Part shown: one piece after another, positions 1 to 62,781 of the stretch
Layout: every line of letters begins with the position of its first letter
Numbering within the stretch: the first letter of the stretch is position 1
IMG/VR virus record: IMGVR_UViG_3300042257_000126
Location: 1-64,000 of that record
Origin: a virus
Lineage: Duplodnaviria > Caudoviricetes
Length of the DNA stretch: 64,000 nt
Direction: 5' to 3' (one strand)
Made by a program: the position numbers and the translations under genes
Notes under the pieces: generated by a model
What the model saw: the letters and a program-made list of their open reading frames with translations, nothing else
What the model was told of the DNA's origin: nothing
Databases searched by the model: none

Positions 1-84
1 AACGTTCCGCAGGTAAATGCCGTGCCTGCACAATTTTCAAATCACGGCACAAACTTCAACAGCATGGCATTTGACCTGCTGTTA
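1..84. repeat. attC-like hairpin 0 (cut by window edge)
   Basis: AAC-GTTCC-GCAGGTAAATGCC...GGCATTTGACCTGC-T-GTTA, extra G in right arm. Confidence 0.8.
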
Positions 85-100
85 TAAAACGTTTTTAGCA

Positions 101-331
101 ATGGAAATTGAAGCGACAAATCTCAGAAAGGACTATAAATTTTTAACAATAAAATCACATTTTGGGAAATACTTGGTTGAGTATTATTCAAATAGAGTTC
201 CGGGACATAGGTCAGAAATATTTGCAACAATGCAAGCAGCAAAAAGATTTTGCACAATGGATATTCAAAACCCAAAATGGGGTAAAGATTATCCTAAATT
301 ACAGTGGCGTGCGAAAGCAAATGTTTTATAA
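101..331 (+). CDS. Cassette hypothetical protein (alternative start at 17, inside the hairpin)
   Basis: ORF fills cassette 81-332; its stop TAA is part of the TAAC core. Confidence 0.7.
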   Translation: MEIEATNLRKDYKFLTIKSHFGKYLVEYYSNRVPGHRSEIFATMQAAKRFCTMDIQNPKWGKDYPKLQWRAKANVL

Positions 332-455
332 CGTAAAAGCATTGCCGTCAGTGGCGGTTTAGAAGTACAAAAGTTTAATACCAGCACAAATGATTGATAG
401 AAGTACAAAAGTTGAAATAAAGAACGTCACCCGCCATTGCGGCAATGCAGTGTTA
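329..455. repeat. attC-like hairpin 1
   Basis: TAAC-GTAAAA-GCATTGCCGTCAGTGGCGG...CCGCCATTGCGGCAATGC-AGT-GTTA. Confidence 0.85.
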
Positions 456-1103
456 GGTGCAGTGCCTTATTCGGAAGTTTATTTGATGGACTGTGTCGCT
501 GGTTTGCGGCATTATCCAGACAATTATTTTGATTTGGCAGTAGTTGACCCGCCTTACGGGATAGGGATTGATGGGCAAAAGCAAAGTATTAATTTGAACA
601 ACCCGAAAGCAAACAGAAAAGAGCATAAATTCAGGGGATGGGATAATGATATACCTTCAAATGAATACTTTGATGAGCTGTGGCGTGTATCTAAAAATCA
701 AATCATTTGGGGTGCGAATTACTTTGTAGAACATTTAAACAAAGGCACAAAAGGGTGGATTGTCTGGTATAAAGGTCAAGAAGGATTAACAATGAGTGAT
801 GCAGAATTAGCATACAGTAGTTTTGATTGTGCCACAAGGGTTGTTAAAATAAACAGGGTTGAACTATTGAAGGACGGAACAATACACCCAACACAAAAGC
901 CTATAAAACTATATGATTGGATTTATGCTAATTATGCAAAGCAAGGAGATTTGATTTTAGATACACATTGCGGAAGCCAAGCCAGTCGAATTGCAGCGGA
1001 TAAGGCGGGTCTTAACTTTGTCGGATTTGAAATTGATGAGGAATATTTTAATGCCGCAAACAAGCGTTTTGATAACTTCAAATCGCAGACGAGGCTGTTT
1101 TAG
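390..1103 (+). CDS. DNA N6-adenine/N4-cytosine methyltransferase (beta-type motif order)
   Basis: DPPY catalytic motif, HPTQKP, ILDTHCGS SAM-binding variant, GFEID. Confidence 0.93.
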   Translation: MIDRSTKVEIKNVTRHCGNAVLGAVPYSEVYLMDCVAGLRHYPDNYFDLAVVDPPYGIGIDGQKQSINLNNPKANRKEHKFRGWDNDIPSNEYFDELWRVSKNQIIWGANYFVEHLNKGTKGWIVWYKGQEGLTMSDAELAYSSFDCATRVVKINRVELLKDGTIHPTQKPIKLYDWIYANYAKQGDLILDTHCGSQASRIAADKAGLNFVGFEIDEEYFNAANKRFDNFKSQTRLF

Positions 1104-1113
1104 GCATTGCACC

Positions 1114-1241
1114 TAACGTTTGACGGTAAACTCTCGTTGCCGTTCTAAATACGAGAGATAAATTTTCAAATTACTACAAAATGAAAAACGAAGCAGAAAA
1201 TATTGATAAACAACAAGGCGATGGAGTTTTACCGTGTGTTA
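1114..1241. repeat. attC-like hairpin 2
   Basis: TAAC-GTTTG-ACGGTAAACTC...GAGTTTTACCGT-GT-GTTA. Confidence 0.85.
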
Positions 1242-1387
1242 GCCGTAGTTTTATTGGCTTATTCATGCACTATGATAATGGCGATATGGTAAACATTCAA
1301 GATTTACCAAAACCAGAATACGAGAAATTTCTTGAACAAATGAACGCATTAAGAATGGCATACATCACCTTGGTTAGTCGTCCGTAA
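1181..1387 (+). CDS. Small cassette hypothetical protein
   Basis: 68 aa ORF starting inside hairpin 2 and ending at the cassette inverted repeat. Confidence 0.7.
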   Translation: MKNEAENIDKQQGDGVLPCVSRSFIGLFMHYDNGDMVNIQDLPKPEYEKFLEQMNALRMAYITLVSRP

Positions 1388-1395
1388 ATTACGGC

Positions 1396-1442
1396 TAACG
1401 GTGAGTGTAACAGGTCGTTTTAATGCCTGTTACACATTGTTA
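1396..1442. repeat. attC-like hairpin 3 (47 bp)
   Basis: TAAC-GGTGA-GTGTAACAGG...CCTGTTACAC-ATT-GTTA. Confidence 0.85.
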
Positions 1443-1474
1443 GGTGTAGTATGAACGGATTAAAAGAATGAAAG

Positions 1475-2059
1475 ATGAAAAAATATAAAACGATAATAGC
1501 AGACCCACCTTGGAAATATAAAGGGCGTGGTCCAGCATCAGCAAAAGAACACCGACCTAATAGTTACGGTGCTGCTCCAAGTAGTGAAGAACGCTATGGG
1601 GCAATGAGTATGGAAGAACTGAAACAACTGCCAATTAAGAATATGATTGAAGATAAAGCACACCTTTATTTGTGGGTAACAAACGCATTTATAGAACGTG
1701 GATGGCAGTTGTGTAAGGATTGGGGATTTGAGCCAAAAACAGTGGTTACGTGGGGGAAACTTAGAAAAGCAGACGGGCAACCAAGTATGAAAACAGGCTA
1801 CTATTTTAGAGGTGCGACTGAACACTTCATATTTGCAACCAAAGGTAACCTTAGATTAAAAGACAAAGCGGTTGAGCCAACACTGTTTTTGAGCGAAAGG
1901 CTGCCGCATAGCGTAAAGCCTGAATGGTTCTACGACCTTGTAGATAGGTGTTCTTTTGCAGACAAGTTAGAACTATTTTCGAGGCGTGAACGAAATGGGT
2001 GGGACTGCTGGGGCAACCAAGCTGAAAATAGCATTGACCTTAGTGAATATTACACCTAA
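1475..2059 (+). CDS. MT-A70 family adenine methyltransferase
   Basis: IIADPPW, LYLWVTN, WGF, TEH, HSVKP, LELFSR, GWDCWGNQ motifs. Confidence 0.93.
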   Translation: MKKYKTIIADPPWKYKGRGPASAKEHRPNSYGAAPSSEERYGAMSMEELKQLPIKNMIEDKAHLYLWVTNAFIERGWQLCKDWGFEPKTVVTWGKLRKADGQPSMKTGYYFRGATEHFIFATKGNLRLKDKAVEPTLFLSERLPHSVKPEWFYDLVDRCSFADKLELFSRRERNGWDCWGNQAENSIDLSEYYT

Positions 2060-2182
2060 CGTTTTGCGTGTATAAGAAGTGGTGGATTTAGAACCCGAAA
2101 CTTTCAATACAGCACTACACTTAATTTGAAAAACGAATGTTGAATATACCACTGAACACGCCATTTTTTATACACGCTGTTA
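2057..2182. repeat. attC-like hairpin 4
   Basis: TAAC-GTTTT-GCGTGTATAAGAAGTGG...CCATTTTTTATACACGC-T-GTTA. Confidence 0.85.
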
Positions 2183-2275
2183 TAAGCTGGTGCGGTTTAT
2201 TATCACAGAACTTGAATCGAAGAACGAAACCTTTTTCTTTTCTTTTTTGTGCAGTGGGAAAATAAAAATTTAATA

Positions 2276-2602
2276 ATGAAAGATAGAGAATATGTAACAA
2301 CTAATGGCAGAGCAGTATTTTACGCTGCTATGTGGAACGATTTAAGACAAGCTGCAATGGATAAAGGTTGGGCATTAGCCTTACACGGAAGCCTTGCAAG
2401 TGATATGGATATTATGGCGATGCCTTGGACAAAAGAAGCCACAAATGATAATGAAATGATAGAAGCAATTAAAAACTGTTTTACTGATTGCAGTAAAATA
2501 AAGGTGGAAATATCTAAAATGCCTAACAACAGGATTGTTTACACACTTTCAATATTTGGGGATTTTTATTTGGACATAAATATTATAAATAACAAAGGAT
2601 GA
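2276..2602 (+). CDS. Hypothetical protein, possible minimal nucleotidyltransferase fold
   Basis: ALHGSLASDMDI resembles the hGS..DhD Pol-beta NTase motif; ATG at 2276 follows an A-rich leader. Confidence 0.55.
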   Translation: MKDREYVTTNGRAVFYAAMWNDLRQAAMDKGWALALHGSLASDMDIMAMPWTKEATNDNEMIEAIKNCFTDCSKIKVEISKMPNNRIVYTLSIFGDFYLDINIINNKG

Positions 2603-3381
2603 ATATAGATTTAAGACAAGGAGAAGCACTCGCGGGAATGCAGAAAATGGTAGATGAAGGTATTGTTGTTGATATGATACTTGCAGACTTACCCTATGGA
2701 ACAACGAGTAATAAATGGGATGCAGTAATTCCGTTTGAACCAATGTGGGAACTTTATTGGAAGCTACTTAAACCAACAGGTGTAATTGTATTAACTGCTT
2801 CTCAGCCATTTTCAAGTGCCTTGATTATGAGCCAACCAAAATATTTTAAACACGAATGGATATGGTTGAAAAACAGAGGCAGTAATTTTGCAAATACAGT
2901 AAGAGAACCAATGAAGGAACACGAACATGTGTTGGTTTTTAGCAAGGGTAAATGGACTTACAATAAGCAAATGCAAGAAAGAACTGGTGCTGGACTTGAT
3001 AGAGTAAAATATAATGTGAAGTTTGAAAGTAAGTCTGAAAATTACAGAGAATTTGAAGGTAGGGTTGAAAACCAACTATCTGATTTGAGAGTTCCTTCAA
3101 GTTGGCAAAAATTCAATACCGATACAAGTGGATTGCACCCAACAATTAAACCTATACCGCTTTTTGAGTATATGATTAAGACATACACAAATGAAGGTGA
3201 AACGGTGTTGGATAACACAATGGGAAGTGGAACAACTGCAATAGCCTGTATGAATTTGAATAGAAATTTCATAGGTATTGAACTTGAAGAAAAATATTTT
3301 CAGGTAGCAAAAAAGAGGGTGGAAGAAAAAAGAAAAGAAAAAGATTTACAAGCAGGAACTCTATTCGGAGACGAAATGTAG
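2599..3381 (+). CDS. DNA N6-adenine/N4-cytosine methyltransferase
   Basis: DLPY, HPTIKP, VLDNTMGSGTT, GIEL motifs. Confidence 0.93.
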   Translation: MNIDLRQGEALAGMQKMVDEGIVVDMILADLPYGTTSNKWDAVIPFEPMWELYWKLLKPTGVIVLTASQPFSSALIMSQPKYFKHEWIWLKNRGSNFANTVREPMKEHEHVLVFSKGKWTYNKQMQERTGAGLDRVKYNVKFESKSENYREFEGRVENQLSDLRVPSSWQKFNTDTSGLHPTIKPIPLFEYMIKTYTNEGETVLDNTMGSGTTAIACMNLNRNFIGIELEEKYFQVAKKRVEEKRKEKDLQAGTLFGDEM

Positions 3382-3391
3382 CACTTGCTTA

Positions 3392-3517
3392 TAACGTATG
3401 GCGGTATGGTGTCGTAGCGGATTAGATGCACAAGCCTATCGAACTGTACGGAAGTAAATAGAAAGCAAAAAATATTGAATTAAACACTAAAACCGCTATG
3501 CACTATACCACGTGTTG
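3392..3517. repeat. attC-like hairpin 5
   Basis: TAAC-GTATGGC-GGTATGGTGTCGTAGCGG...CCGCTATGCACTATACC-ACGT-GTTG. Confidence 0.8.
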
Positions 3518-3539
3518 TAAACTGTAAATACGGTAAAAT

Positions 3540-4172
3540 ATGAACGAAATGAACTTAATAAATACAGACTGCTTACAAGCCTTACGAGAATGTAAAGACA
3601 AGCAATTCAACTTGGCATTAACTGACCCACCTTATAATGTAGGCAGAAAGTATAATGAATATGACGATACACGCCAAGCGAAAGAATACGAAAAATGGTG
3701 TAAAGATTGGTTAAATGAGCTTTTGAGAACTTGTGAAACTGTTGTAATGACTGTTGGTTATAAAAACCTAAAGTTTTGGATTAACCAAGACCCAAAACAT
3801 ATGATGATATGGCACAAACCAAACCAAAACAGTCCAAGCCCTTTAGGTGGATTTAATGCTTATGAACCTGTATTGTTTTGGGGTAAAAATCAAAAGCGAA
3901 TTGGACACGATATATTCAAAACAAATATTGCTATGCAAGAAGAAGCTGCTTGGCACGATTGCCCGAAACACCTGCCAAGTTGGACTAAATTACTTGATAT
4001 GATAGCTGATGAAGGAATGAATATAGTGGACCCGTTTTTAGGAAGCGGAACGACTGCAATTGCTTGTCATAAACTTAAAATGAATTTTACTGGATATGAA
4101 ATTGATAAGACGTATTATGATAAGGCTTGTAAGCGGATTAAACACTACACTTCGCAAATGGCACTATGGTAG
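3540..4172 (+). CDS. DNA N6-adenine/N4-cytosine methyltransferase
   Basis: TDPPY, HDCPK, VDPFLGSGTT, GYEID motifs. Confidence 0.93.
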   Translation: MNEMNLINTDCLQALRECKDKQFNLALTDPPYNVGRKYNEYDDTRQAKEYEKWCKDWLNELLRTCETVVMTVGYKNLKFWINQDPKHMMIWHKPNQNSPSPLGGFNAYEPVLFWGKNQKRIGHDIFKTNIAMQEEAAWHDCPKHLPSWTKLLDMIADEGMNIVDPFLGSGTTAIACHKLKMNFTGYEIDKTYYDKACKRIKHYTSQMALW

Positions 4173-4185
4173 TATTTATTGTTTA

Positions 4186-4279
4186 CAACGTAGATGCGGT
4201 ATGGTTAGTAAAGCCACCCACTATCGCAGCCTATGAAATACAAACTTTAATTGGCTTTATTAACTATGACCGCTTGTTA
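4186..4279. repeat. attC-like hairpin 6
   Basis: CAAC-GTAGAT-GCGGTATGGTTAGTAAAGCCA...TGGCTTTATTAACTATGACCGC-TT-GTTA, extra G in right arm. Confidence 0.85.
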
Positions 4280-4301
4280 GCGGTTGTTATTTACTTTACT
4301 T

Positions 4302-4511
4302 ATGGATAAATTAATAGCAGAAATAGGCGATACAATAAGTTGGACATTTGATGATAAGCCAACAGAGAGCGAAATGTTTAGAGGTAAAACATTTAGTGCA
4401 GAAGTGGCAATGGTAGATGTTGAAGAAAGGCACTACGGTGTATATGCGGATTACGGACAAGATTTAATACCATTTGAGCACGCCACTATTCAGCGGACTA
4501 ATAACCGCTAA
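4302..4511 (+). CDS. Small cassette hypothetical protein
   Basis: ORF fills cassette 4276-4512; its stop is part of the TAAC core. Confidence 0.7.
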   Translation: MDKLIAEIGDTISWTFDDKPTESEMFRGKTFSAEVAMVDVEERHYGVYADYGQDLIPFEHATIQRTNNR

Positions 4512-4544
4512 CTATGTTGTATATGTAATGCACACCCGTGCAAA
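4509..4544. repeat. Array-terminal conserved site, copy 1 (candidate attI-like site)
   Basis: TAACTATGTTGTATATGTAATGCACACCCGTGCAAA, 32/36 identical to 62746-62781. Confidence 0.7.
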
Positions 4545-4558
4545 CAAAACAAATAATT

Positions 4559-4789
4559 ATGAAACAACAACTTACACCAACAGAAATCAGGAAAATTCAA
4601 AATATATGTTTTCAAAATCCGGTCAGGGCTTGCACAGTTGCGCAAGTAATTTTAGATACGTGCCAGGTTGTGAGTTGTTCTACTTATGCAAGGTTGCACA
4701 AAAAAAGTAAGCGGACGGTTTTGTATCAATCAAAACACATGACCGGAGTGAATGTTGAGGACAGAAAGTTTATTGCATTATGTTCTTAA
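4559..4789 (+). CDS. Hypothetical protein, possibly DNA-binding
   Basis: Basic ORF after an A-rich leader; STYARLHKKSKRTV is HTH-like (weak). Confidence 0.55.
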   Translation: MKQQLTPTEIRKIQNICFQNPVRACTVAQVILDTCQVVSCSTYARLHKKSKRTVLYQSKHMTGVNVEDRKFIALCS

Positions 4790-5349
4790 AAGACAAACAA
4801 AACGATTTATTGACAAAAATGTCGGTGTTAAGAAATGGGTACTACACGAACTCAAACGGTAACACGGCACAGGGCAAACTGTGGCTGCTTGGCTACAATG
4901 ATTGCTGGCTATCTGGGTGTGAACTCAGGACGGCAAAAACAGGAATTCATTATATTGTGATCGAGTTAAAGCGAAAACCTGTTAACGTGGATGGGCTTAA
5001 AACAAAAGTGTCATTCGTGCCATACACCGATATTTTGTTCACGAAAGACCTAAAGAATTTCCTTGCAGGATTTGGTCACGCGCTTAAACCAAAGCCACCT
5101 GACATGAGCGAGAACACGTATATAAGGCACGTAAAGAACCGGGTGGATACTTTGATAGGTCAGAACATAAAAGTCGTTGTAACGTACTCCTACGAACCCA
5201 GACGGGACAAATACGGGTATCAGGTGGAGCGGAATAAGTACTACGACGAAAAAGAAAAAGTGTTTGATTGGCGTATGAATGTGTTTTATAACATAAACAG
5301 GGATTTGGATTGGAGGAAGATTTCAAGTGTTTTTGTTAAAGAATTGTAA
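4780..5349 (+). CDS. Hypothetical protein
   Basis: 189 aa ORF in the operon. Confidence 0.7.
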   Translation: MFLKDKQNDLLTKMSVLRNGYYTNSNGNTAQGKLWLLGYNDCWLSGCELRTAKTGIHYIVIELKRKPVNVDGLKTKVSFVPYTDILFTKDLKNFLAGFGHALKPKPPDMSENTYIRHVKNRVDTLIGQNIKVVVTYSYEPRRDKYGYQVERNKYYDEKEKVFDWRMNVFYNINRDLDWRKISSVFVKEL

Positions 5350-5395
5350 CGTACTTTGTGTTTTATTTATTATCTTTACAGAAAAATTTTAAATT

Positions 5396-5692
5396 ATGGG
5401 TTGGGGAACAATTTTAAAAGAAGTTTACATAAACAGGATTGTGCCAGAAGATGTTGAACACCTTATGGAAGAAGAAGAATCCTTAATAACAATGTATCGT
5501 GATGACTTGATGATGTTGGCGGCAGCCACACCGAGAGAAGTAAACGATGGCGACAGCGTTGAACCGTGGGAAGATTACGCATCAAGACGTGTTGGAGAAG
5601 CGATAGATGGATTAATGGAATGTGCCGTAAGGCGATACCAGTTTAATCTTATAAAGGAAGCAGACCCAAACGATATTGTGCATGATGCGTAA
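5396..5692 (+). CDS. Hypothetical protein
   Basis: Acidic 98 aa ORF with a good AT-rich leader. Confidence 0.7.
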   Translation: MGWGTILKEVYINRIVPEDVEHLMEEEESLITMYRDDLMMLAAATPREVNDGDSVEPWEDYASRRVGEAIDGLMECAVRRYQFNLIKEADPNDIVHDA

Positions 5693-6095
5693 GTACGTTG
5701 CACACCCACAGGATAAACACGATGCAAAGCAGGAGTTAGATCAGGTTCCATATCCTTATTTCCTGATGGCAGTGCGACACAAACCGGAAAAAGGAACAGA
5801 CGAATATGAGAAGTGGTTGCGGTCTAATTCGTTTTTTCATCGTTGCATTGTTCCAACGTTCTCTGAACTTAGTGGATTGGGGGAAAACGAAGCCAAAGAA
5901 GAACTGCAAAAAATGTTTGCATTGGTCAACGATTTACCGGACAGTTTTGAGGTAGAGAGCATAGCAGGAATGAGCCTACAACGGCTAACTCAGTTCAACG
6001 AAAACTGTCAGAATTTTTTAATAATGAATTACGGAGAACGGGCAGACGAACTTCTGCTGAATAATATTGGAAAAACAAAGAAGATTAAAAAATAA
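5676..6095 (+). CDS. Hypothetical protein (NinB-like resemblance, weak)
   Basis: Overlaps the previous stop; lies in the recombination cluster. Confidence 0.6.
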   Translation: MCMMRKYVAHPQDKHDAKQELDQVPYPYFLMAVRHKPEKGTDEYEKWLRSNSFFHRCIVPTFSELSGLGENEAKEELQKMFALVNDLPDSFEVESIAGMSLQRLTQFNENCQNFLIMNYGERADELLLNNIGKTKKIKK

Positions 6096-6744: not shown

Positions 6745-7034
6745 AAAAGCTAACGGAAGACTTGTACATCGACAGCGATCCCGATTGCTTTACGTTGTAC
6801 CAAAAGAGAACAGTAAAAGATAAAGACAGAAAGAACTTTGGCAAGGAATCGTTTCCTGTTGTCGGGTACTACGCTACTTACGAGCAGGTAAGTAAGAAGA
6901 TTGCTGAAATTGGAGTAAAAGAATATATTGATAAAGATTGGTTGCAGTGTGTGGAGTTTGTTAACGAAGCACACGAAAACTTTCTGAGTAACGTGAAAGA
7001 ACTTTTAAGTAAAAGATATGGAAAAACTAATTGA
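6741..7034 (+). CDS. Hypothetical protein
   Basis: ORF overlapping both neighbours. Confidence 0.7.
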   Translation: MKKLTEDLYIDSDPDCFTLYQKRTVKDKDRKNFGKESFPVVGYYATYEQVSKKIAEIGVKEYIDKDWLQCVEFVNEAHENFLSNVKELLSKRYGKTN

Positions 7035-7542
7035 AATACAAAGAACATTAAAAGCACCAAAGAACCAATTCAATAAATTTGGTAATTATAAGTATCGTTC
7101 AGCAGAAGATATACTTGAGGCCGCCAAACCATTGTGTACACAGAACGGTGCGTTGTTGACGCTTACTGATGATGTTGTTGAGATCGGTGGTAAGATATTT
7201 GTTAAGGCAACAGCTACGTTTCAACACGAATCGTTTACACACAGCGTTTCTGCTTTTGCTATGCACCCGGAAGATAGAAAGGGAATGGATGCAAGCCAGA
7301 TAACCGGAGCATCTTCGTCGTATGCAAGGAAATATGCTTTAAACGGGTTGTTCTGTATTGACGATGGGAAAGACAATGATTCCCTCGATTCTGCACACAA
7401 AAGAAAGCAAATTAAACTCCCAAGAGAAAAGGTTGACGACGCTGTAAAATTTATAAAAAGCGGTAAGACGATGGACGAACTAAAACAGTTTTATGACATT
7501 GACGCAGCCGTTGAAAAAGAAATTGTAAAGAAACTTGTATGA
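7018..7542 (+). CDS. erf: ERF family ssDNA-annealing protein
   Basis: KAPKNQFNKFGNYKYRSAEDILEA and QITGASSSYARKYALNGLF signatures. Confidence 0.92.
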   Translation: MEKLIEIQRTLKAPKNQFNKFGNYKYRSAEDILEAAKPLCTQNGALLTLTDDVVEIGGKIFVKATATFQHESFTHSVSAFAMHPEDRKGMDASQITGASSSYARKYALNGLFCIDDGKDNDSLDSAHKRKQIKLPREKVDDAVKFIKSGKTMDELKQFYDIDAAVEKEIVKKLV

Positions 7543-8162
7543 ATTTAAGATTTGACATAGAACAGGGAACACCCGAATGGCATGAGATTAAATACGGAAA
7601 GTTCAGTGCATCTGTGGCAGATAATCTACTAATGGGCGAGAACACCGCTGGCTACAACAGTTTAATTAGTCGTATTGTGGAGGAACGGTTTACCGGCAGA
7701 AAAACAGATGGTAAGTCTTTTAGCAATGGTTACATGGAACGTGGTATTGAAATGGAGGAAGAAGCTGTTGAATATTACGAGGCATTGCATTTATGTTCGA
7801 CACAAAAGATTGGTGTTATAGAGGTGGATGATTGGGTTGTGGTAAGTCCTGACCGACTTATTGGCGATGACGGATTGCTACAAATTAAGTGTCCTATATT
7901 CAATACACAGGTTGGATATTTGAAGTCAGGAAAAGTTCCGAACAACTACTTTAAACAAATGCAGTTTGAACTGTGGGCTTCCCAAAGGGATTATAATGTG
8001 TTTTTTTCCTATCATCCTGATTTACCACCATTGGAAGTTGTTGTTGAGCCAGACAAGAAAGTGTTTGAATTGATTGAAAGCAGACTTGAAAAAGCTAAAG
8101 AACAAGTCGTTGCTGATTGTGAATTTTTATCTAACTTAATGTTGAAATATGTTTCCACTTAG
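7539..8162 (+). CDS. YqaJ/lambda-exonuclease family nuclease
   Basis: EQGTPEW, SAS, MERGIEME, SPDRL, QIKCP, QMQ motifs. Confidence 0.9.
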   Translation: MNLRFDIEQGTPEWHEIKYGKFSASVADNLLMGENTAGYNSLISRIVEERFTGRKTDGKSFSNGYMERGIEMEEEAVEYYEALHLCSTQKIGVIEVDDWVVVSPDRLIGDDGLLQIKCPIFNTQVGYLKSGKVPNNYFKQMQFELWASQRDYNVFFSYHPDLPPLEVVVEPDKKVFELIESRLEKAKEQVVADCEFLSNLMLKYVST

Positions 8163-45259: not shown

Positions 45260-45318
45260 CAAAGATACGCATGAAAGGGTACAACACAAAAAAAGCCCCA
45301 CTCCAACGAGCAGGGCTT
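45260..45318 (-). promoter_or_regulatory. Terminator (45288-45318) followed by a TATCTTTG -7 box (45260-45267)
   Basis: Hairpin plus T tract, then the Bacteroidota -7 consensus upstream of ATG 45242. Confidence 0.7.
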
Positions 45319-45337
45319 GCACTACGAGAAGAAACTA

Positions 45338-46372: not shown

Positions 46373-46429
46373 ATCTGCATATTTTAGTTTCTTCTACAAA
46401 AAAATGGAAGGGGGACTAAGCCCCCTATC

Positions 46430-48363: not shown

Positions 48364-48383
48364 GATTTATCTTTTTAATTTCG

Positions 48384-49475: not shown

Positions 49476-49536
49476 TTTGTTTCTTCTTTAATGCGTTACA
49501 AAAATATAGTGTTAATTTTTATTCCTTAAAAAAGGC

Positions 49537-51927: not shown

Positions 51928-51945
51928 CTACGTCTAATTTTGAAA

Positions 51946-52005
51946 CAAAGATACACACAAGACACTAAGGCATAAAAAAAGCCCTACCATTGACAGTGGT
52001 AGGGC
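51946..52005 (-). promoter_or_regulatory. Terminator (51974-52005) then a -7 promoter box (51946-51953) for the portal
   Basis: GCCCTACCA..TGGTAGGGC plus T7; TATCTTTG. Confidence 0.75.
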
Positions 52006-52176
52006 ATGAGGTGTAAATATGAACAAATCTGAATCTCGTTACAAATATAAGCAATTAATCGTTATGATCCAAATTTTAACACGTTGTATATGCATTTTTT
52101 TCAAAATGCACATACAACAACGTTAGCGCAAATATTGAAAAGAAAACACGAGGATAATGCTTAAAATGATTTAAAA

Positions 52177-52596
52177 ATGGATACACAAAAAATTGAACAA
52201 GTCTTTTCAATGGCAAATAAAATAGCCTTTCATCCGACAAGAAATGTTCAAAAAGAACCATCTGTTGTCGGATTGGAATTTCACAAAAACTTATTAGGAG
52301 AAGCAATAGATTGCTATTCAAACTTAAAAAATGAATTAACACATAGAGACTTGGTGTTTACGTTTAAAAGAATTAAAAACGGAATAAAAGCATCAATAAT
52401 ATCAAAATCAAAAGGAGAAGTAATGTCATTTAGAATAAGTCAAGAAAAAGGAATGACTGAATTTGCCAAAGAAACAAATCCAAATCATCCTTTCGCTTTT
52501 GTAATATTACAGCCATCTAACGACGGATATCATCTTGTTCCTGATTCAAATCCTTATCAACCGATTGTTTTCGACAAATATGTTTTGATAGAATAA
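52177..52596 (+). CDS. Hypothetical protein inside cassette
   Basis: 139 aa A-rich ORF, antisense to the late operon. Confidence 0.65.
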   Translation: MDTQKIEQVFSMANKIAFHPTRNVQKEPSVVGLEFHKNLLGEAIDCYSNLKNELTHRDLVFTFKRIKNGIKASIISKSKGEVMSFRISQEKGMTEFAKETNPNHPFAFVILQPSNDGYHLVPDSNPYQPIVFDKYVLIE

Positions 52597-52669
52597 ACTT
52601 TCCATTAGGTGATTCTTTTACCAGAATATCTCTACCGTTTTTAGCAAATATAAAATCTACTCTTTTCAT
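52517..52669 (-). CDS. Small hypothetical protein (50 aa)
   Basis: MKRVDFIFAKNGRDILVKESPNGKF..., convergent with and overlapping 52177-52596. Confidence 0.4.
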   Translation of the reverse strand: MKRVDFIFAKNGRDILVKESPNGKFILSKHICRKQSVDKDLNQEQDDIRR

Positions 52670-52716
52670 ATAACAAAAATACAACACAAAAAAGAAACCG
52701 ATAAAAAAGCAGTAAA

Positions 52717-53088
52717 ATGGGACTATTCAGTTTTAACGAAGATGTATTAACAGAATTATATTTTCACGATACAGGAACAAGTATAAAACAAACAGTAGTA
52801 GGCAAAAACAAGGAAGAACTAATTGCCCAAAACGCAATTACTTTTATCGTCCACTACTTTTCAATTGTAAAAAACAATGAAGAAAAAATGGAATTACAAC
52901 TACAAAGAGATTATAAAACAAGTCACCTGTGTAAACGATTTCGCCTCATTGCTTTTATATTGTTCCATATACGCCAAAAACCAATAGTAAGATTAACAAA
53001 ACAGAGCGCATATAACACAGCAATATTAATTGCGTCTTTAGCGATGATCATGATAATGATAATCACAATCATTATGACGATTGAATAG
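52717..53088 (+). CDS. Hypothetical protein with a C-terminal TM segment
   Basis: 123 aa ORF with a hydrophobic tail. Confidence 0.6.
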   Translation: MGLFSFNEDVLTELYFHDTGTSIKQTVVGKNKEELIAQNAITFIVHYFSIVKNNEEKMELQLQRDYKTSHLCKRFRLIAFILFHIRQKPIVRLTKQSAYNTAILIASLAMIMIMIITIIMTIE

Positions 53089-53114
53089 ATAGACTTTTTT
53101 ATTGCAGTAATCAT
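52923..53114 (-). CDS. Small hydrophobic protein
   Basis: 63 aa, AT-rich leader, overlaps the 3' end of 52717-53088. Confidence 0.45.
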   Translation of the reverse strand: MITAIKKSIYSIVIMIVIIIIMIIAKDAINIAVLYALCFVNLTIGFWRIWNNIKAMRRNRLHR

Positions 53115-53136
53115 TAACTTTTAAATTTTATAAATT

Positions 53137-53364
53137 ATGAAACTTAATTACACCAAAAATCTCGACGAACTAACCGAAAAAGAATTAATGCAATTTATAA
53201 TCGGAACACAAACGTTAATTCTTCGCAGACTTGATGACATTGAATCAAAAATCAAAGACCGCAAAGAGCAAACACACCAAGAAACTGTTGACGAAATACT
53301 ATTCAAAGTAGAATCAAACATTGACAGAATAAACGAAACACTTGAAAGAAAAGCTACAAATTAA
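53137..53364 (+). CDS. Small coiled-coil protein
   Basis: 75 aa with a good leader. Confidence 0.6.
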   Translation: MKLNYTKNLDELTEKELMQFIIGTQTLILRRLDDIESKIKDRKEQTHQETVDEILFKVESNIDRINETLERKATN

Positions 53365-53551
53365 TGCTGTATCGCATCTTGACCATATAACAATCAGCAG
53401 TGGGATGGTCGTCTGCTTTTGGATAGGCAGTAATCATATTAATTTTAGCATCTACAATTTTTCGGTTTAGCAAATCAACTGTTTGTTCAATGTCCGCCTT
53501 GATGTTATCAATTTTTTCTTGCGTTAATTGGTCAATGACACTTACTGACAT
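53354..53551 (-). CDS. Small hypothetical protein
   Basis: ATG 53551 just inside the cassette boundary. Confidence 0.55.
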   Translation of the reverse strand: MSVSVIDQLTQEKIDNIKADIEQTVDLLNRKIVDAKINMITAYPKADDHPTADCYMVKMRYSINL

Positions 53552-53707
53552 ATTACTTATTTTTAAAAACAAGCAAATTGACTAAAAAGACAAAATACTT
53601 GCGCTAACACTGTGCAAATGCCACTCGCCTCTTAGCTTTTACGGCAGTTCCATCTCGTTAGCTGGTTATGCGCCTCTAATTATTGTTGACGGAAAAGCGA
53701 GAGGCAC

Positions 53708-53908
53708 TTGCACTTATCCGTCAAAAAGCACACAGGTGCAAAATGGGATAGAGACATGTCAACATATATTGAATATGTCAACATGAGAATGAACAATCAG
53801 AATGCACAAATCAATGAAGCTCTTCTAAACGATTACAGACTACTAATAAACGAGTTGTTTGCAAAAATAGAAGAGCTTCAAAAACAAATAATCAGGACAA
53901 AGGGATAG
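53708..53908 (+). CDS. Small coiled-coil protein (start uncertain)
   Basis: ORF convergent with 53892-54083. Confidence 0.45.
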   Translation: MHLSVKKHTGAKWDRDMSTYIEYVNMRMNNQNAQINEALLNDYRLLINELFAKIEELQKQIIRTKG

Positions 53909-54083
53909 TGTCATCATATAGCACTGCGCCTCTGTCAAACTGAGGAGACACGTACAGCTTGCCGTTCTTGTTTGAAATTTTTACCATATCAACCAATGGG
54001 AGCTTACGAAAGTTGTCAATCAATAAATTAAGCTCTTTGTTCAATTCATCTCTTCTTTGAAAAACGTAGTCGTATTGAGACAT
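53892..54083 (-). CDS. Small hypothetical protein
   Basis: ATG about 25 bp after the hairpin GTTA, AT-rich leader. Confidence 0.6.
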   Translation of the reverse strand: MSQYDYVFQRRDELNKELNLLIDNFRKLPLVDMVKISNKNGKLYVSPQFDRGAVLYDDTIPLS

Positions 54084-54254
54084 GACTAATAATTTAAAAC
54101 CGCCCTATAACACTCTGTATATAACACGCTTGGTGTCGTAGTACGGTGATAATACTTTATTTTAATTAACTCTTGCGGTTCGTATGAAATGATACAGATT
54201 TTAATACAAGCGCATTACATACAGTAACCGTTACAAATATACAAAAAAAATCAC

Positions 54255-60395: not shown

Positions 60396-60659
60396 CTAAT
60401 CCGCTTCTTGAGTATTGGGTTCATGATCAAAGTTTGGTGTGTAAATCTTGCCGGTAAATCCATATTCAACAACCTGATCTGTTATGTCCCATTCGTAAAC
60501 AGGCAACATATCGTCCTCTAATATCTGCTGGTCATAAAACCGACCCCAGTGATACACAGCCAACGCCATCCCCAATTTGTTCCAGTTGTCCCCAACGGTT
60601 ACAACACAAATGCTGCCGTTCTTTAAATCAACATCGTCCCGTTTGTCTTTAAACTCCAT
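60396..60659 (-). CDS. Hypothetical protein
   Basis: -7 box at 60687-60694 upstream. Confidence 0.65.
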   Translation of the reverse strand: MEFKDKRDDVDLKNGSICVVTVGDNWNKLGMALAVYHWGRFYDQQILEDDMLPVYEWDITDQVVEYGFTGKIYTPNFDHEPNTQEAD

Positions 60660-60767
60660 TTTTCTTCTCGTTTATTATTATGCCTACAAAGATAACTATA
60701 TTAACACACGCCACCAAATCAAAACGTATGTTGTGCAACATAAATTCGTGATTCTCAAATTGCAAAT

Positions 60768-60950
60768 TCAAGTATTAACATTTTTTTTGTTGTTAAACCG
60801 AATTCCATATTCTCCGTCATACAACTTCAAAATACGCCTTGAACTTTTCATTTTTTCGCTCGGTGTGATATGAAACAAAGTTTTTGTCGTGTCGGCAAGA
60901 AACTTTGGGTCTTCCTGCATATACCTAAAAAAATCAGTTAAACTTCCCAT
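60768..60950 (-). CDS. Small hypothetical protein
   Basis: -7 box at 60968-60975 upstream. Confidence 0.55.
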   Translation of the reverse strand: MGSLTDFFRYMQEDPKFLADTTKTLFHITPSEKMKSSRRILKLYDGEYGIRFNNKKNVNT

Positions 60951-61023
60951 AATTAATTATTTTCCAACAAAGATAACATTTTAAACGTGAAAGTGTGCCG
61001 ACAAGAATATGTTTTACAACATA

Positions 61024-61512
61024 TCAAGCCTCATCGTAATATCCATTAAACGTGTCTTTGCAAAATTTCTTCAATTCGCCTTCATAGCGAAACCATTCTC
61101 CACGAGACCTATTTGCCCAAAAGCGTTTATGAAAATTTCTTTCAACCACACGATCTCCTTCCACAAAACCAAGGATTCTTAAACTAAAAGGACAACCGCT
61201 CTGTAATGATTCAATCCTACTCAAAGGATTTTTACTATAACCAATTTTGCAAAAACCATAGTCCTCATTTACAAAAAAATATACATAATCTCCTTCAAGA
61301 TTTTGTTTTTTTCTCATTTGTTTCGCTTCACTGACTTTGTCCCAATATTCCAAAAAAGGAATTTGAAAAACATCCTCAAATAATTGAAATAAATGTTTTT
61401 TCTTTAAGTAAGATAATGGTTTTCCTTGATGGAATATAATTCTCTTTTCTCTTAATTTATTCCTACAAAGTTTAAGTTGTTGTTGAGATAAACTGTAATT
61501 GCTTTTTTTCAT
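61024..61512 (-). CDS. GIY-YIG family, T5orf172/MUG113-like protein
   Basis: YVYF..KIGYS..RIESLQSGCP..ERNFH..RGEWF. Confidence 0.88.
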   Translation of the reverse strand: MKKSNYSLSQQQLKLCRNKLREKRIIFHQGKPLSYLKKKHLFQLFEDVFQIPFLEYWDKVSEAKQMRKKQNLEGDYVYFFVNEDYGFCKIGYSKNPLSRIESLQSGCPFSLRILGFVEGDRVVERNFHKRFWANRSRGEWFRYEGELKKFCKDTFNGYYDEA

Positions 61513-62093
61513 TTGTATGACACTTTTGAACTCGTATCTTTTTCCGTGAAGGATATAGAAAGTCCTTTAGGGCATGAAAATGCTCTTTTTGTTGTTACTT
61601 TTTTTTTATCCTTCACGAAGGTTTTGCTTGCTTTGTTTGACACTTCGTCGCCCGTAGAGCCCCCTCCATGTTCGGCTACAAAGAAATATATGGACTTTGT
61701 AGCTTGCGTTCATATTAACCCATATCGCCTATACAGCCTGAACGCCTCATTTCAGCTTCGTTCCTTGCGTATTTTGTCCTGCGTGGTAAGAACGATTTAT
61801 TTGTGTACCCCACCGTTAATATTTTTTTGTTCCGTCGATACACAAAAAAACCACCCTCTTACACGAAGAAGGTGGAATGTTTCTATGCGAAAACCGTCAG
61901 AACGATTTTTTTTCAATTTAATATGTAACTCAAGTTTTCGCATAAAAAACTATTTTTAACACCGCAAATATAATAAAAAAAAATTAACCACCAAAAAAAG
62001 GTTTAAAAAAAGTTGTCAGCGTGTATTTAAAGTACAAAAACCCACGCCGACCGGGGACACCCCAATCCTTTGCGTGGGTCTTTTTAAGGGATA

Positions 62094-62219
62094 CTACCCT
62101 TTGCGTTTTTTCAGGTATTCTTCACCGGAAATTTTGTTACGCACAAATGCGGACAAAAGTTGGTCTTTTGCTCTCTTGCTTCTTCCGATTTTTTTGCTAC
62201 CTTTTTTTGAATTTTTCAC
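62094..62219 (-). CDS. Small basic protein (41 aa)
   Basis: GTG start, MKNSKKGSKKIGRSKRAKDQ..., -7 box at 62278-62285, hairpin plus T tract downstream. Confidence 0.4.
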   Translation of the reverse strand: MKNSKKGSKKIGRSKRAKDQLLSAFVRNKISGEEYLKKRKG

Positions 62220-62339
62220 GACGTTCTATTTTATAGTTTTACGTCATGTGTGCCTCCTTTCGTTTTTTGTGTTGTGGCAAATATAGTAAAATGTGTTGTA
62301 AAACATATAAAAGGTCTGCATATTTTGTTACAAAAATGT

Positions 62340-62347
62340 TACCTTTG
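62340..62347 (+). promoter_or_regulatory. -7 box of a rightward promoter next to the cassette hairpin
   Basis: TACCTTTG, divergent from the -7 box at 62278-62285. Confidence 0.65.
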
Positions 62348-62349
62348 TA

Positions 62350-62781
62350 TAAAGGTACTGCCGTATGAGACGTGCCGAGTAATTAATAACTAAAAAAAAA
62401 AATAATATGAAAACAAATTGTGGAAGTTCCCCTGATAGTTCAACAAAGCCGGAAGTCATGGATTATGACGGCATGTTAACAACTGGCTTTTATTGGCATC
62501 CGAGATACAGCCAGACCGATGAGCCAGACAAACAAGGACGGTGGTCGAGGCTTTGCTTTTATCGTAAATTTCTAATTGCATGGATAAGTAGGCAACAAGT
62601 GAACGAAACTGTAATGTATGTTGTAACTGATTTTTTCCCGACAAATGGAAATAGTAACCCATGCTTTGTGGAAGCTACCGAAGATTTTGAAAAAGCAAAA
62701 GAAGGGGTGGAAAAACGTTTCAACGAGTTTCTTAAAGCTTGTTGTTAACTATGTTGTATGTGTAATGCGCACTTGTGCAAA
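62350..62781 (+). mobile_element. Third cassette locus: hairpin 62350-62478, one cassette 62475-62749, terminal site 62746-62781
   Basis: TGCCGTATGA...TTATGACGGCA-T-GTTA; GTTAACAACTGGCTTT / AAAGCTTGTTGTTAAC; 36 bp site shared with 4509. Confidence 0.8.
62407..62748 (+). CDS. Cassette hypothetical protein
   Basis: Starts inside the hairpin and stops at the TAAC core. Confidence 0.7.
   Translation: MKTNCGSSPDSSTKPEVMDYDGMLTTGFYWHPRYSQTDEPDKQGRWSRLCFYRKFLIAWISRQQVNETVMYVVTDFFPTNGNSNPCFVEATEDFEKAKEGVEKRFNEFLKACC

What the first reader, a model, noticed from the sequence alone, without database searches (positions are those of the whole stretch)
81..62749. Invariant G:T mismatch at position 11 of every matched cassette terminal repeat
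Seen: in all nine cassettes with matching ends (seven in 81-4512, plus 52122-53608 and 62475-62749), base 11 counted from GTT is G on the left end while the pairing base on the right end is T. Three also have T:T at position 10. Pairing resumes for at least 3 more bp. The repeats are 14-18 bp, much longer than the 7 bp integron R box. Inference: a fixed defect in otherwise unrelated sequences points to a folded single-stranded substrate read by shape, or to a footprint of how the cassettes are made.
Basis: seen in the sequence. Interest (0 to 1): 0.75.

Follow-up and report, generated by a model that had tools for sequence, protein, structure and literature searches.

The report
Fixed wobble pair in phage cassette ends
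Swappable gene cassettes in this Bacteroidota phage have matching ends that always carry a G·T or T·T pair, never a normal pair, at the 11th position; this probably tells a recombination enzyme which DNA strand to use.

Summary

- **In the window:** all nine cassettes have matching ends (GTT… and …AAC). Position 11 is G on the gene-start end opposite T on the gene-stop end, followed by at least 3 more pairs. I found 9 such pairs, against 1 in total across 100 shuffles.
- **One caveat:** cassette 52122-53608 fits only when read on the minus strand.
- **In other DNA:** I selected 79 further cassettes from other viral contigs and Bacteroidota genomes on positions 1-9 only. Position 11 is G·T in 61, T·T in 16, unclear in 2, and never Watson-Crick.
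- **The conserved base:** the T at -11 of the stop end is present in 83 of 91 sites.
- **Control:** a true integron (Colwellia, IntI present) has 8-12 nt of end complementarity that simply stops near position 11. So 7 bp is too low a baseline; what is new here is the non-canonical pair plus a 3-4 bp outer clamp.
- **What the sites are:** attC-like hairpins of an integron-like system. Polaribacter phage P12002L's copy is published as a CALIN.
- **Polarity is reversed:**
  - hairpins travel with the downstream gene;
  - G·T pairs favour the sense strand;
  - in relatives a Xer-like recombinase, not IntI, sits after the last cassette.
- **Best reading (not shown):** the pair is a mark for strand choice or recognition at the outer edge of the recombinase-binding arm.

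This scan has noted the cassette system on other genomes before. The notes shown to me do not mention the position-11 pair.

The parts
81..332 (+). Cassette 1. Start-side end (LE) is 81-94 and stop-side end (RE) is 319-332. G91 lies opposite T322.
452..1117 (+). Cassette 2, N6_N4 DNA methyltransferase (ORF 390-1103). LE 452-467, RE 1102-1117. G462 lies opposite T1107.
1238..1399 (+). Cassette 3. LE 1238-1251 lies inside ORF 1181-1387, whose start codon is in the upstream hairpin. RE 1386-1399. G1248 lies opposite T1389.
1439..2060 (+). Cassette 4, MT-A70 methyltransferase (ORF 1475-2059). LE 1439-1452, RE 2047-2060. G1449 lies opposite T2050. About 50 nt at the start and 45 nt at the stop are nearly identical to relatives, while the gene interior is far more diverged.
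2179..3395 (+). Cassette 5 (ORF 2249-2602 and N6_N4 methyltransferase 2599-3381). LE 2179-2193, RE 3381-3395. T:T at position 10; G2189 lies opposite T3385.
3514..4189 (+). Cassette 6, N6_N4 methyltransferase (ORF 3540-4172). LE 3514-3531, RE 4172-4189. T:T at position 10; G3524 lies opposite T4179.
4276..4512 (+). Cassette 7 (ORF 4284-4511), the last of the array. LE 4276-4289, RE 4499-4512. G4286 lies opposite T4502.
4..80 (+). attC-like hairpin before cassette 1. The window starts with AAC, so the array is cut by the contig end.
   Evidence: stem read by eye
333..451 (+). attC-like hairpin between cassettes 1 and 2. Layout: AAC | about 6 nt | imperfect stem | loop | stem | 3 nt | GTT.
1118..1237 (+). 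Hairpin-like spacer before cassette 3; it holds the ATG of ORF 1181-1387. Its terminal stem was seen by eye only; the predicted fold did not show it.
1400..1438 (+). Short attC-like hairpin with the conserved 11-nt loop. This family was used to collect sites elsewhere.
2061..2178 (+). attC-like hairpin between cassettes 4 and 5.
3396..3513 (+). attC-like hairpin between cassettes 5 and 6.
4190..4275 (+). attC-like hairpin between cassettes 6 and 7.
4513..4544 (+). Conserved flank that follows the last AAC of the array. It recurs at 62750 and in relative G001, where a different last cassette precedes it.
52122..53608 (-). Solo cassette in inverted orientation. On the minus strand LE is 53608-53594 (G opposite C53598) and RE is 52136-52122 (T opposite A52132).
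62475..62749 (+). Solo cassette. LE 62475-62490 lies inside ORF 62407-62748. RE 62734-62749. T:T at position 10; G62485 lies opposite T62739.
62750..62781 (+). Second copy of the conserved flank, after the last AAC.
7018..8162 (+). Erf-like single-strand annealing protein (7018-7542) and exonuclease (7539-8162). These are the only recombination genes I found among the 20 window ORFs screened against PHROGs.

Best explanation
**What the array is (shown).** It belongs to an integron-like cassette system of Bacteroidota phages and their hosts. Each unit is a folding attC-like hairpin, then a start-side end beginning GTT (LE), then the gene, then a stop-side end finishing AAC (RE).

**How the ends fold (inferred).** When a unit is single-stranded and closed on itself, RE and LE pair around the hairpin. 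They form a 9-10 bp helix next to the AAC/GTT crossover triplets, then one obligatory non-Watson-Crick pair at position 11, then a 3-4 bp outer clamp. The T of that pair sits on the RE arm and is nearly invariant. Its partner on the LE arm is G in about four of five cases and otherwise T.

**What the pair does (inferred).** It sits about one helical turn from the cleavage site. That is where end complementarity simply stops in a classical integron, so it lies at the outer edge of the arm that one tyrosine-recombinase monomer would cover. G·T and T·T keep the sense strand helical, while the antisense strand gets C·A or A·A. The pair therefore marks which strand folds and is recombined, and it may be read directly by the recombinase.

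**The enzyme (inferred).** The recombinase is probably Xer-like and lacks the IntI insert. It is encoded after the last cassette in some related phages and is absent from this 92 % complete record.

**Shown versus inferred.**
- Shown: the pattern, its generality, the covariation, the strand bias, and the recombinase next to arrays in relatives.
- Inferred: folding in vivo, cleavage at AA|C of the sense strand, and the role of the pair.
For: **Pattern in the window.** Nine of nine cassettes show it, against 1 full-pattern pair in 100 shuffles.

**A close relative.** G001 carries a different last cassette with T:T at position 10 and G:T at position 11, next to the same flank.

**Larger set.**
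Of 127 hits, 71 (69 unique) have the AAC-hairpin-GTT architecture.
- Of 120 genome stretches, 22 have it. By record title, 20 of the 22 are Bacteroidota.
- Partners chosen without regard to mismatch position scored at least 13 of 16 in 48 cases, against 3 in the wrong-direction control.
- Among the 44 unique pairs from that search, position 11 is mismatched in 42, while positions 12-14 are mismatched in only 2, 2 and 1.
- Selection on positions 1-9 alone gave 79 unique pairs, with 5 in the wrong-side control: G·T 51 plus 10 with a 1-nt bulge, T·T 16, other 2, Watson-Crick 0.

**Sequence conservation.** RE -11 is T in 83 of 91 sites. LE position 11 is A in only 6 of 85.

**Conserved through divergence.** Window cassette 5 and its P12002L homologue (67.9 % DNA identity) differ at positions 4 and 7, with compensating changes on the other end. 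Both keep the T:T and G:T pairs (read by eye).

**Classical control.** Colwellia cassettes have 8-12 identical nt and then random sequence.

**Strand bias in predicted folds.**
- Phage-family hairpins have 1.31 G:T pairs on the sense strand and 0.12 on the antisense strand (n=72).
- Colwellia attC sites have 0.25 and 2.28 (n=36). This matches the published 0.39 on the top strand and 1.24 on the bottom, recombined, strand (Nivina 2016, passages).
- Closed-unit folds are more stable on the sense strand in 7 of 7 window cassettes.

**Polarity.**
- 22 site pairs share the downstream end but have unlike upstream ends. In 11-12 of them the hairpin is also the same. No site pair shares the upstream end.
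- A Xer-like recombinase lies downstream and co-oriented in viral loci L031, L091 and L119.
- In L119 it starts 41 nt after the last AAC. It scores 151 bits against the 265-bit integron-integrase cut-off.
Against: - **No recombination, circle or folding was observed.** The metagenome joint 328->4509 is weak: depth 3, 26 nt on one side, contigs only.
- **The unpaired bases point the other way.** In the hairpins the arm next to RE's AAC carries more unpaired bases (5.49 against 3.17; 71 of 72). The Colwellia integron has the same orientation. By the IntI rule this would make the antisense strand the substrate.
- **Hairpins are not strictly linked to the downstream cassette.** About half of the 22 pairs have different hairpins, and the MT-A70 cassette has three different hairpins on each side.
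- **Sequence motifs may be part of the answer.** The T at -11 and its neighbours are sequence-conserved, so part of the signal could be a plain sequence motif.
- **Exception.** One of the four P12002L cassettes has ends that do not match beyond GTTAG.
- **No recombinase in this phage record**.
- **Sampling.** The larger set comes from one hairpin-loop family, and about 5 of the 79 pairs may be false.
Confidence: 0.5

Rival explanations
1. The helix is an RNA feature. The 5' and 3' ends of each gene's transcript pair, with G·U or U·U at position 11, and the hairpins are RNA elements in front of each gene. They would serve processing, stability or translation. The DNA-level resemblance to attC would be secondary or additional.
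For: - All non-canonical pairs are of the kinds RNA helices tolerate (G·U, U·U), and they lie on the sense strand.
- Hairpins sit in front of genes and travel with them.
- Two window ORFs (1181-1387 and 62407-62748) start inside the upstream hairpin.
- About 50 nt at the start and 45 nt at the stop of the MT-A70 cassettes are conserved far better than the coding interior.
- The 11-nt hairpin loop was the fixed search word, so its identity in every collected site shows only that the motif is widespread with covarying stems.
Against: - Exchange boundaries between phages fall exactly at AAC| and |GTT.
- A tyrosine recombinase abuts the array in relatives.
- An attC site of the homologous P12002L array was recombined by IntI1 (Qi 2023, section 3.4 read).
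- No Rfam family matches window 1-6000.
- The two ends lie up to 1.2 kb apart.
- No RNA data were examined.
Confidence: 0.15
2. There is no functional mismatch. RE and LE each carry their own short conserved motif ([A/C]TT at -12..-10; [A/T]G[T/G] at 10..12). These are read on duplex DNA by two differently bound recombinase subunits, or are needed so that the ends of neighbouring, unrelated cassettes can still pair at three positions inside the array. The G/T clash is then a by-product of two different consensus sequences.
For: - RE -11 T (83 of 91), -12 A (66 of 91) and -10 T (57 of 91), and LE position 11 G (57 of 85), are conserved at the sequence level regardless of partner.
- In the array, RE of one cassette faces LE of the next, and the majority forms could pair at positions 10-12 (inference).
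- Asymmetric half-sites are usual for Xer-type recombinases (general knowledge, not tested here).
Against: - Positions 12-14 covary with their own partner: T:A or G:C, mismatched in only 2, 2 and 1 of 44 pairs. The helix therefore runs through position 11.
- If pairing alone mattered, A at LE 11 would serve better, yet it is avoided (6 of 85; 0 of 79 Watson-Crick).
- In array-context folds the outer helix forms in only 2 of 6 window junctions.
Confidence: 0.15
3. The cassettes are shuffled by the phage's own homologous-recombination genes (Erf-like annealing protein plus exonuclease), using conserved boundary sequences. This resembles the promoter/stem-loop boundary elements reported in T4-type phages (recalled, not checked). 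The end complementarity and its mismatch would have no role in recombination.
For: - The Erf-like protein and the exonuclease lie 2.5 kb from the array.
- This phage record has no site-specific recombinase.
- Hairpins and 45-50 nt cassette ends are conserved across phages, while gene interiors and neighbours differ.
- Contigs from other samples join cassette 5's interior to other start-side ends at 2215.
Against: - This does not explain why each cassette's two ends covary (46 hexamers).
- It does not explain a fixed non-canonical pair.
- It does not explain the invariant AAC/GTT at boundaries.
- It does not explain the Xer-like recombinase next to arrays in relatives.
Confidence: 0.1
4. The G/T difference is a footprint: a mutational or copying bias left when cassettes are generated or inserted, for example a base always miscopied at a fixed distance from the junction.
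For: The fixed distance from the junction in sequences that are otherwise unrelated. No direct support.
Against: - The pair is kept in homologous cassettes that have diverged to 68 % identity, with compensated neighbours.
- Two alternative partners (G or T) and an optional 1-nt bulge occur, but never a Watson-Crick pair. That looks like selection, not a single copying error.
- No known mechanism.
Confidence: 0.05

Closest known systems
Integron attC sites and gene cassettes (IntI / attI / attC), including the G:T mispair bias and extrahelical bases that select the recombined strand (Nivina et al. 2016, NAR, PMC5027507; passages read)
   Same: - RYYYAAC...GTTRRRY-type boundaries around an imperfect hairpin.
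- The cassette start is complementary to its own stop-side box.
- G:T mispairs are enriched on one strand of the fold. My Colwellia control reproduces the published bias.
   Different: - The non-canonical pair is at one fixed position outside the 7-bp R box and is followed by a 3-4 bp clamp. Classical cassettes just stop pairing at 8-12 nt.
- G:T pairs lie on the gene's sense strand, not the antisense strand.
- The hairpin precedes its gene.
- There is no IntI. Associated recombinases score below the integron-integrase cut-off and lack the middle of the model.
Clusters of attC sites lacking an integrase (CALINs) in phages: Polaribacter phage P12002L with two methyltransferase cassettes (Qi et al. 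2023, Front Microbiol, PMC9892861; section 3.4 and passages read)
   Same: - The P12002L array is homologous to this one: methyltransferase DNA is 65-68 % identical, and it has the same short hairpin with the same loop.
- One of its attC sites was recombined by IntI1 in their assay.
   Different: - The parts of the paper I read do not mention end complementarity beyond the R box, a fixed G:T, or reversed polarity. It does note 'divergent directions' of the two predicted sites.
Single-strand hairpin substrates with functional mispairs in other systems: IS200/IS605 transposon ends and the folded attachment site of the cholera-toxin phage used by XerCD
   Same: A recombinase or transposase reads a folded single strand in which unpaired or mispaired bases, not sequence, give specificity and strand choice.
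   Different: Different enzymes, different site architecture and no gene-cassette arrays. No homology was tested here.

Membership tests
Integron (IntI, attI, attC cassettes) | An integron integrase: a tyrosine recombinase with the IntI-specific extra domain, scoring above the TIGR02249 cut-off | tested here: not met
   - No PF00589 match in the 73.5-kb record.
- 0 of 5 Bacteroidota genomes carrying these sites score over the cut-off; their hits skip model positions 181-237.
- The recombinase beside the L119 array scores 151 bits against a 265-bit cut-off, in two stretches.
- The positive control works: Colwellia and Pseudoalteromonas score 457 and 483 bits.
Integron (IntI, attI, attC cassettes) | attC architecture: ...AAC, an imperfect hairpin with unpaired bases, then GTT... 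| tested here: met
   - Seven junctions in the window: six folded (five show the terminal stem; 1118-1237 does not) and 4-80 read by eye.
- 71 of 127 viral and 22 of 120 genomic pattern hits keep the architecture, with covarying stems.
Integron (IntI, attI, attC cassettes) | The first bases of a cassette are complementary to its own stop-side (inverse core) box | tested here: met
   Nine of nine window cassettes, 79 pairs elsewhere and 30 Colwellia control cassettes.
Integron (IntI, attI, attC cassettes) | attC follows its ORF, and the recombined (G:T-rich) strand is antisense to the ORF | tested here: not met
   - The hairpin co-occurs with the downstream end in 11-12 of 22 informative site pairs and never with the upstream end.
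- G:T pairs are 1.31 on the sense strand and 0.12 on the antisense strand, against 0.25 and 2.28 in Colwellia.
- Conflicting cue: the side carrying the extra unpaired bases is the same as in Colwellia.
Integron (IntI, attI, attC cassettes) | An insertion site (attI) next to the integrase at the growing end of the array | tested here: inconclusive
   - A conserved flank follows the last AAC at 4513 and 62750 and in G001, and the cassette next to it differs between G000 and G001.
- In L119 the recombinase gene starts 41 nt after the last AAC.
- No empty site was found.
Integron (IntI, attI, attC cassettes) | Demonstrated site-specific recombination of the sites | not testable with these tools
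   - Only the literature bears on this: P12002L_attC2 was recombined by IntI1 (Qi 2023).
- One weak contig joint, 328->4509, in a metagenome run.
CALIN (cluster of attC sites lacking an integrase) | Two or more attC sites with no integron integrase nearby, as called by IntegronFinder | tested here: inconclusive
   Seven attC-like junctions and no recombinase in the record. IntegronFinder itself could not be run. The homologous P12002L array was called a CALIN by its authors.
Known structured RNA family (Rfam) | A match to a curated covariance model | tested here: not met
   Window 1-6000 in E-value mode gave only one chance-level match, at E = 0.12.

The most novel reading that the evidence does not exclude
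Bacteroidota phages and their hosts run a second kind of integron. A Xer-like recombinase lacking the IntI insert recombines folded sense-strand sites. The job done in classical integrons by extrahelical bases, choosing the strand and holding the synapse, is here taken over by one obligatory T·G or T·T wobble at the outer edge of an extended 11-bp R arm, closed by a short clamp helix. The wobble would then be the key recognition element of a new structure-specific recombination system, one that could be used as a tool alongside attC/IntI.
Probability: 0.3. Interest if true: 0.8.

Novelty: new variant of a known kind. Interest (0 to 1): 0.6.

Why it matters
**For the biology.** Integron recombination is the textbook case of a recombinase reading the shape of single-stranded DNA, and how the strand is chosen decides whether captured genes can work. 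This finding shows a large natural family of such sites. They occur in dozens of viral contigs and in Bacteroidota genomes, and mostly carry DNA-modification genes that phages use against host restriction. In this family a single non-canonical pair is fixed at one position, apparently on the opposite strand from the classical system and with a different recombinase.

**For experiments.** It yields a sharp, cheap test: mutate one base and measure frequency and strand choice. It could also explain how phages swap anti-restriction methyltransferases.

**A side result.** Classical cassettes pair over 8-12 nt rather than 7. That matters for anyone delimiting cassette boundaries.

Tried and rejected
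- **Close phage relatives in GenBank phages:** none for window 36000-56000. Only methyltransferase-gene matches for 1-5000.
- **Anchor-protein scan of viral contigs:** one close relative only.
- **First stem filter:** it was mis-registered and passed 16 sites. Corrected.
- **First detection of Colwellia attC sites:** it missed most sites and mis-paired cassettes. Redone. The runs of 3-5 nt that remain there are probably still mis-paired.
- **Rfam:** nothing.
- **Metagenome contigs.**
  - All four runs are contigs, so no read-level ends, circles or strand information.
  - The joints 712->948, 922->3271 and 3423->3493 look like assembly through conserved methyltransferase motifs or other organisms. 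I dropped them.
  - Stretches without cover mean nothing.
- **Is the hairpin linked to the upstream cassette, as the classical model predicts?** No site pair shares an upstream end, so that link could not even be scored.
- **Which strand is used, judged from unpaired bases:** this conflicts with the G:T bias and is left unresolved.
- **Promoter or terminator reading of the hairpins:** not tested. The available scan covers sigma-70-type sites only.
- **Literature searches for prior description:** I saw listings and abstract starts only. One search returned nothing relevant. I found no paper describing a fixed mispair at position 11 or a Xer-like integron system in Bacteroidota phages. That absence rests on these four searches alone.
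- **Supplementary tables of Qi et al. 2023** (primer sequences and attC coordinates) are closed. They could show which physical strand of the P12002L site recombined.
- **The dif-like or Xer-site idea for the terminal flank:** considered from memory only and not pursued.

Full report
**1. The observation.**

The window is the first 64 kb of a 73.6-kb IMG/VR virus record that is linear and estimated 92 % complete. It is a tailed phage, with terminase, portal and an Erf-like annealing protein.

Positions 1-4512 hold seven units. Each begins with GTT and ends with AAC, and its first 14-18 nt are the reverse complement of its last 14-18 nt. Two more units lie at 52122-53608 and 62475-62749.

- In eight of the nine, position 11 counted from GTT is G on the left end and T on the right end.
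- The ninth shows the same pattern only when read on the minus strand, so it is an inverted unit.
- Position 10 is T:T in three units.
- Pairing resumes for 3-7 nt after position 11.

The window contains 49 GTT...AAC pairs identical over positions 1-9, and nine of them have the whole pattern. One hundred dinucleotide shuffles produced one such pair in all.

**2. What the units are.**

The units are separated by 39-120-nt spacers. Each spacer has the form AAC | 4-6 nt | imperfect stem | loop | stem | 1-3 nt | GTT. This is the layout of an integron attC site.

The ORFs include three N6_N4 DNA methyltransferases and one MT-A70 methyltransferase.

The methyltransferase region matches an array in Polaribacter phage P12002L. 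Qi et al. 2023 published that array as a cluster of attC sites without an integrase, and they showed that one of its sites is recombined by IntI1 (section 3.4 and passages read).

In P12002L I read four cassettes by eye:
- one with G:T at position 11;
- one with T:T and G:T after a 1-nt bulge;
- one with T:T at positions 10 and 11;
- one whose ends do not match.

A 96-98 % identical relative of the window's phage (G001) carries a different last cassette, with T:T at position 10 and G:T at position 11, in front of the same flank.

**3. A larger, independent sample.**

The short hairpin at 1400-1438 has an 11-nt loop.

Of 127 hits, 71 (69 unique) keep the AAC-stem-loop-stem-GTT architecture, with covarying stems.
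Twenty-two have the true architecture. By record title, all but two are Bacteroidota.

For each site I looked for the partner of the flanking end within 4 kb.

- *Position-blind score over 16 nt.* Forty-eight partners reached at least 13 of 16, against 3 in a wrong-direction control. In the 44 unique pairs, the mismatch counts at positions 1-16 are 0, 0, 0, 1, 0, 0, 2, 0, 3, 18, 42, 2, 2, 1, 12 and 27.
- *Selection on positions 1-9 only.* This says nothing about later positions. It gave 79 unique pairs, with 5 in the wrong-side control. Position 11 is G·T in 51, G·T after a 1-nt bulge in 10, T·T in 16, unclear in 2, and Watson-Crick in 0. Mismatch fractions are 0.56, 0.92, 0.23, 0.27, 0.35 and 0.51 at positions 10-15, and about 0.7 (random) from position 16 on. 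Forty-six different hexamers occupy positions 4-9.

That is clearly not the case.

**4. The defect is also a sequence motif.**

Among 91 unique stop-side ends, -11 is T in 83, -12 is A in 66 and -10 is T in 57. Among 85 start-side ends, position 11 is G in 57, T in 17 and A in only 6, and some of those are register shifts.

So the T is nearly invariant. Its partner is G or T, and the base that would pair properly is avoided.

**5. Comparison with a real integron.**

Colwellia asteriadis has an integron integrase above the curated cut-off and an array of 36 attC sites. Its 30 unique cassettes show identical starts and stops for 8-12 nt, most often 10-11. After that the sequence is random, and pairing does not resume.

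Two points follow.
- The usual 7-bp figure understates the complementarity of classical cassettes.
- In the phage family, position 11 is exactly where the classical helix ends.

The phage family therefore has a helix of classical length, then an obligatory non-canonical pair, then a 3-4 bp clamp.

**6. Which strand?**

Nivina et al. 2016 report that G:T mispairs are enriched on the recombined bottom strand of attC sites (1.24 against 0.39) and stabilise it relative to the other strand, which has C and A there (passages read).

- My folding reproduces this for Colwellia: 0.25 on the top strand and 2.28 on the bottom, with the bottom strand 2.46 kcal/mol more stable.
- In the phage family it is the reverse. 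There are 1.31 G:T pairs on the strand that is sense for the genes and 0.12 on the other (n=72).
- Closed-unit folds of all seven window cassettes are more stable on the sense strand.
- The pairs at positions 10 and 11 follow the same logic. G·T and T·T on the sense strand become C·A and A·A on the antisense strand. The intermediate options (T·C, which is A·G on the other strand) are not used.

Other evidence points to reversed polarity.
- Among pairs of sites from different contigs, 22 share the downstream end with an unlike upstream end. In 11-12 of these the hairpin is the same too. No pair shares the upstream end.
- The cassette next to the conserved 3' flank is the one that differs between G000 and G001.
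- A weak contig joint removes 333-4512 exactly from AAC| to AAC|.
- Three viral contigs have a Xer-like tyrosine recombinase 1-2 kb downstream of the site and co-oriented with it.
- In L119 it begins 41 nt after the last cassette. That cassette has a 22-nt end repeat broken only by G/A at position 11.
- That recombinase and the one beside a cassette in Natronoflexus score below the integron-integrase cut-off, in two stretches. They lack the middle part of the model. None of five Bacteroidota genomes with these sites has a true IntI.

One cue disagrees. The arm next to the stop-side AAC carries more unpaired bases, in the same orientation as in Colwellia. By the IntI rule this would make the antisense strand the substrate. 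I leave this open, since a recombinase without the IntI insert may follow other rules.

**7. Further anatomy.**

- Three MT-A70 cassettes (the window, L058 and L126) are nearly identical over about 50 nt at the start and 45 nt at the stop. Their coding interiors are far more diverged (roughly half identical by eye), and their flanking hairpins differ. The ends are therefore conserved as sites, and hairpins can be exchanged.
- Contigs from other samples attach other start-side ends to the interior of cassette 5 at position 2215.
- I took the longest ORF of at least 80 codons inside the 79 pairs (window cassettes left out), which gave 49 ORFs, and sampled 10. They include five N6_N4 methyltransferases, one C-5 methyltransferase fragment, one TET-associated glycosyltransferase and one class I aminoacyl-tRNA-synthetase-like protein. 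Two have no match (L007 and L011) and one more (L079) also has none, making three without a family.
- The cargo is thus mostly DNA modification, which fits counter-defence against restriction.

**8. Explanation and rivals.**

*Best reading (confidence 0.5).* The pair is a strand-selecting and possibly directly recognised element at the outer edge of an 11-bp recombinase arm. It acts in the folded sense strand of a closed unit.

*Rivals.*
- An RNA-level helix with G·U or U·U (0.15).
- Two independent half-site motifs, with the clash as a by-product (0.15).
- Boundary sequences for the phage's Erf/exonuclease recombination, with the complementarity incidental (0.1).
- A mutational footprint (0.05).

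The covariation through positions 12-14, the avoidance of the pairing base, and the retention of the pair in diverged homologues with compensated neighbours argue against the last three. Nothing here excludes an added RNA role.

**9. Known or new.**

- The existence of attC clusters with methyltransferases in phages is published (Qi 2023).
- G:T mispairs as a strand-stabilising feature of attC sites are published (Nivina 2016).
- This scan's earlier notes on at least seven other genomes describe the same cassette system, its backward-facing genes and Xer-like recombinases. These are unchecked AI notes. I reached the polarity reading from my own before reading them, and I tested the recombinase lead.
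- In four literature searches (listings only) and in the papers I read, I did not find the fixed non-canonical pair at position 11, its T-strand invariance, or the clamp beyond it.

I class it as a new variant of a known kind.

**10. Limits.**

- No experiment and no read-level data were available.
- About 5 of the 79 pairs may be false.
- Several structural statements about individual hairpins were read by eye.
- The supplementary tables of Qi et al. could not be opened.

Noticed in passing
L259 (Colwellia asteriadis chromosomal integron, G010:C8:15600-35560): Classical integron cassettes have starts and stops identical over 8-12 nt (mode 10-11), not just the 7-nt R box. One repeated roughly 296-bp cassette type has an imperfect 20-nt match.
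   Followed up: partly
window 1181-1387 and 62407-62748; L006 4872-5162; L119 2054-2317: Small ORFs start inside the hairpin upstream of their cassette and run through the GTT end. The recombination site therefore supplies the start codon and the N-terminus.
   Followed up: partly
window 1439-2060 versus L058 and L126: In MT-A70 cassettes about 50 nt at the start and 45 nt at the stop are nearly identical, third codon positions included, while the gene interior is far more diverged.
   Followed up: partly
window 1400-1438 and about 90 sites in L006-L245: The 11-nt hairpin loop, with its closing G-C pairs, was the fixed search word. It recurs in dozens of viral contigs and in Bacteroidota genomes while the stems covary. 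What reads this loop is unknown.
   Followed up: no
window 502/1061 and 51680/53273: Two perfect 13-nt GTT...AAC inverted repeats without the position-11 defect. One lies inside the methyltransferase gene of cassette 2; the other spans the portal-gene end and the inverted cassette. About 0.1 would be expected by chance (my estimate).
   Followed up: no
window 52063 onward versus L004 (G001): The close relative diverges from the window at 52063, between the portal and terminase genes. It carries other DNA there, so this spot with the inverted solo cassette is a second variable site.
   Followed up: no
window 1-3 and the contig ends of G000 and G001: Both assemblies break inside the cassette array. 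The window starts with the AAC of a missing cassette, so the array is longer than seen and probably variable within the samples.
   Followed up: no
window 1-6000 in runs X1-X24: Parts of the array occur in 24 wastewater, oil-field and subsurface metagenome runs, with shares from 1.0 down to 0.18. This suggests many array variants of one phage lineage. Only four runs were laid.
   Followed up: partly
L154 4654-6681 (Natronoflexus pectinivorans): A 675-aa protein with a C-terminal Xer-like recombinase domain and about 390 unexplained N-terminal residues. It lies convergent to a single cassette, 330 bp away.
   Followed up: partly
L108 3893-5149 and L117 5595-6440: Cassette cargo is not only methyltransferases. 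There is a class I aminoacyl-tRNA-synthetase-like protein of 418 aa and a TET-associated glycosyltransferase.
   Followed up: no
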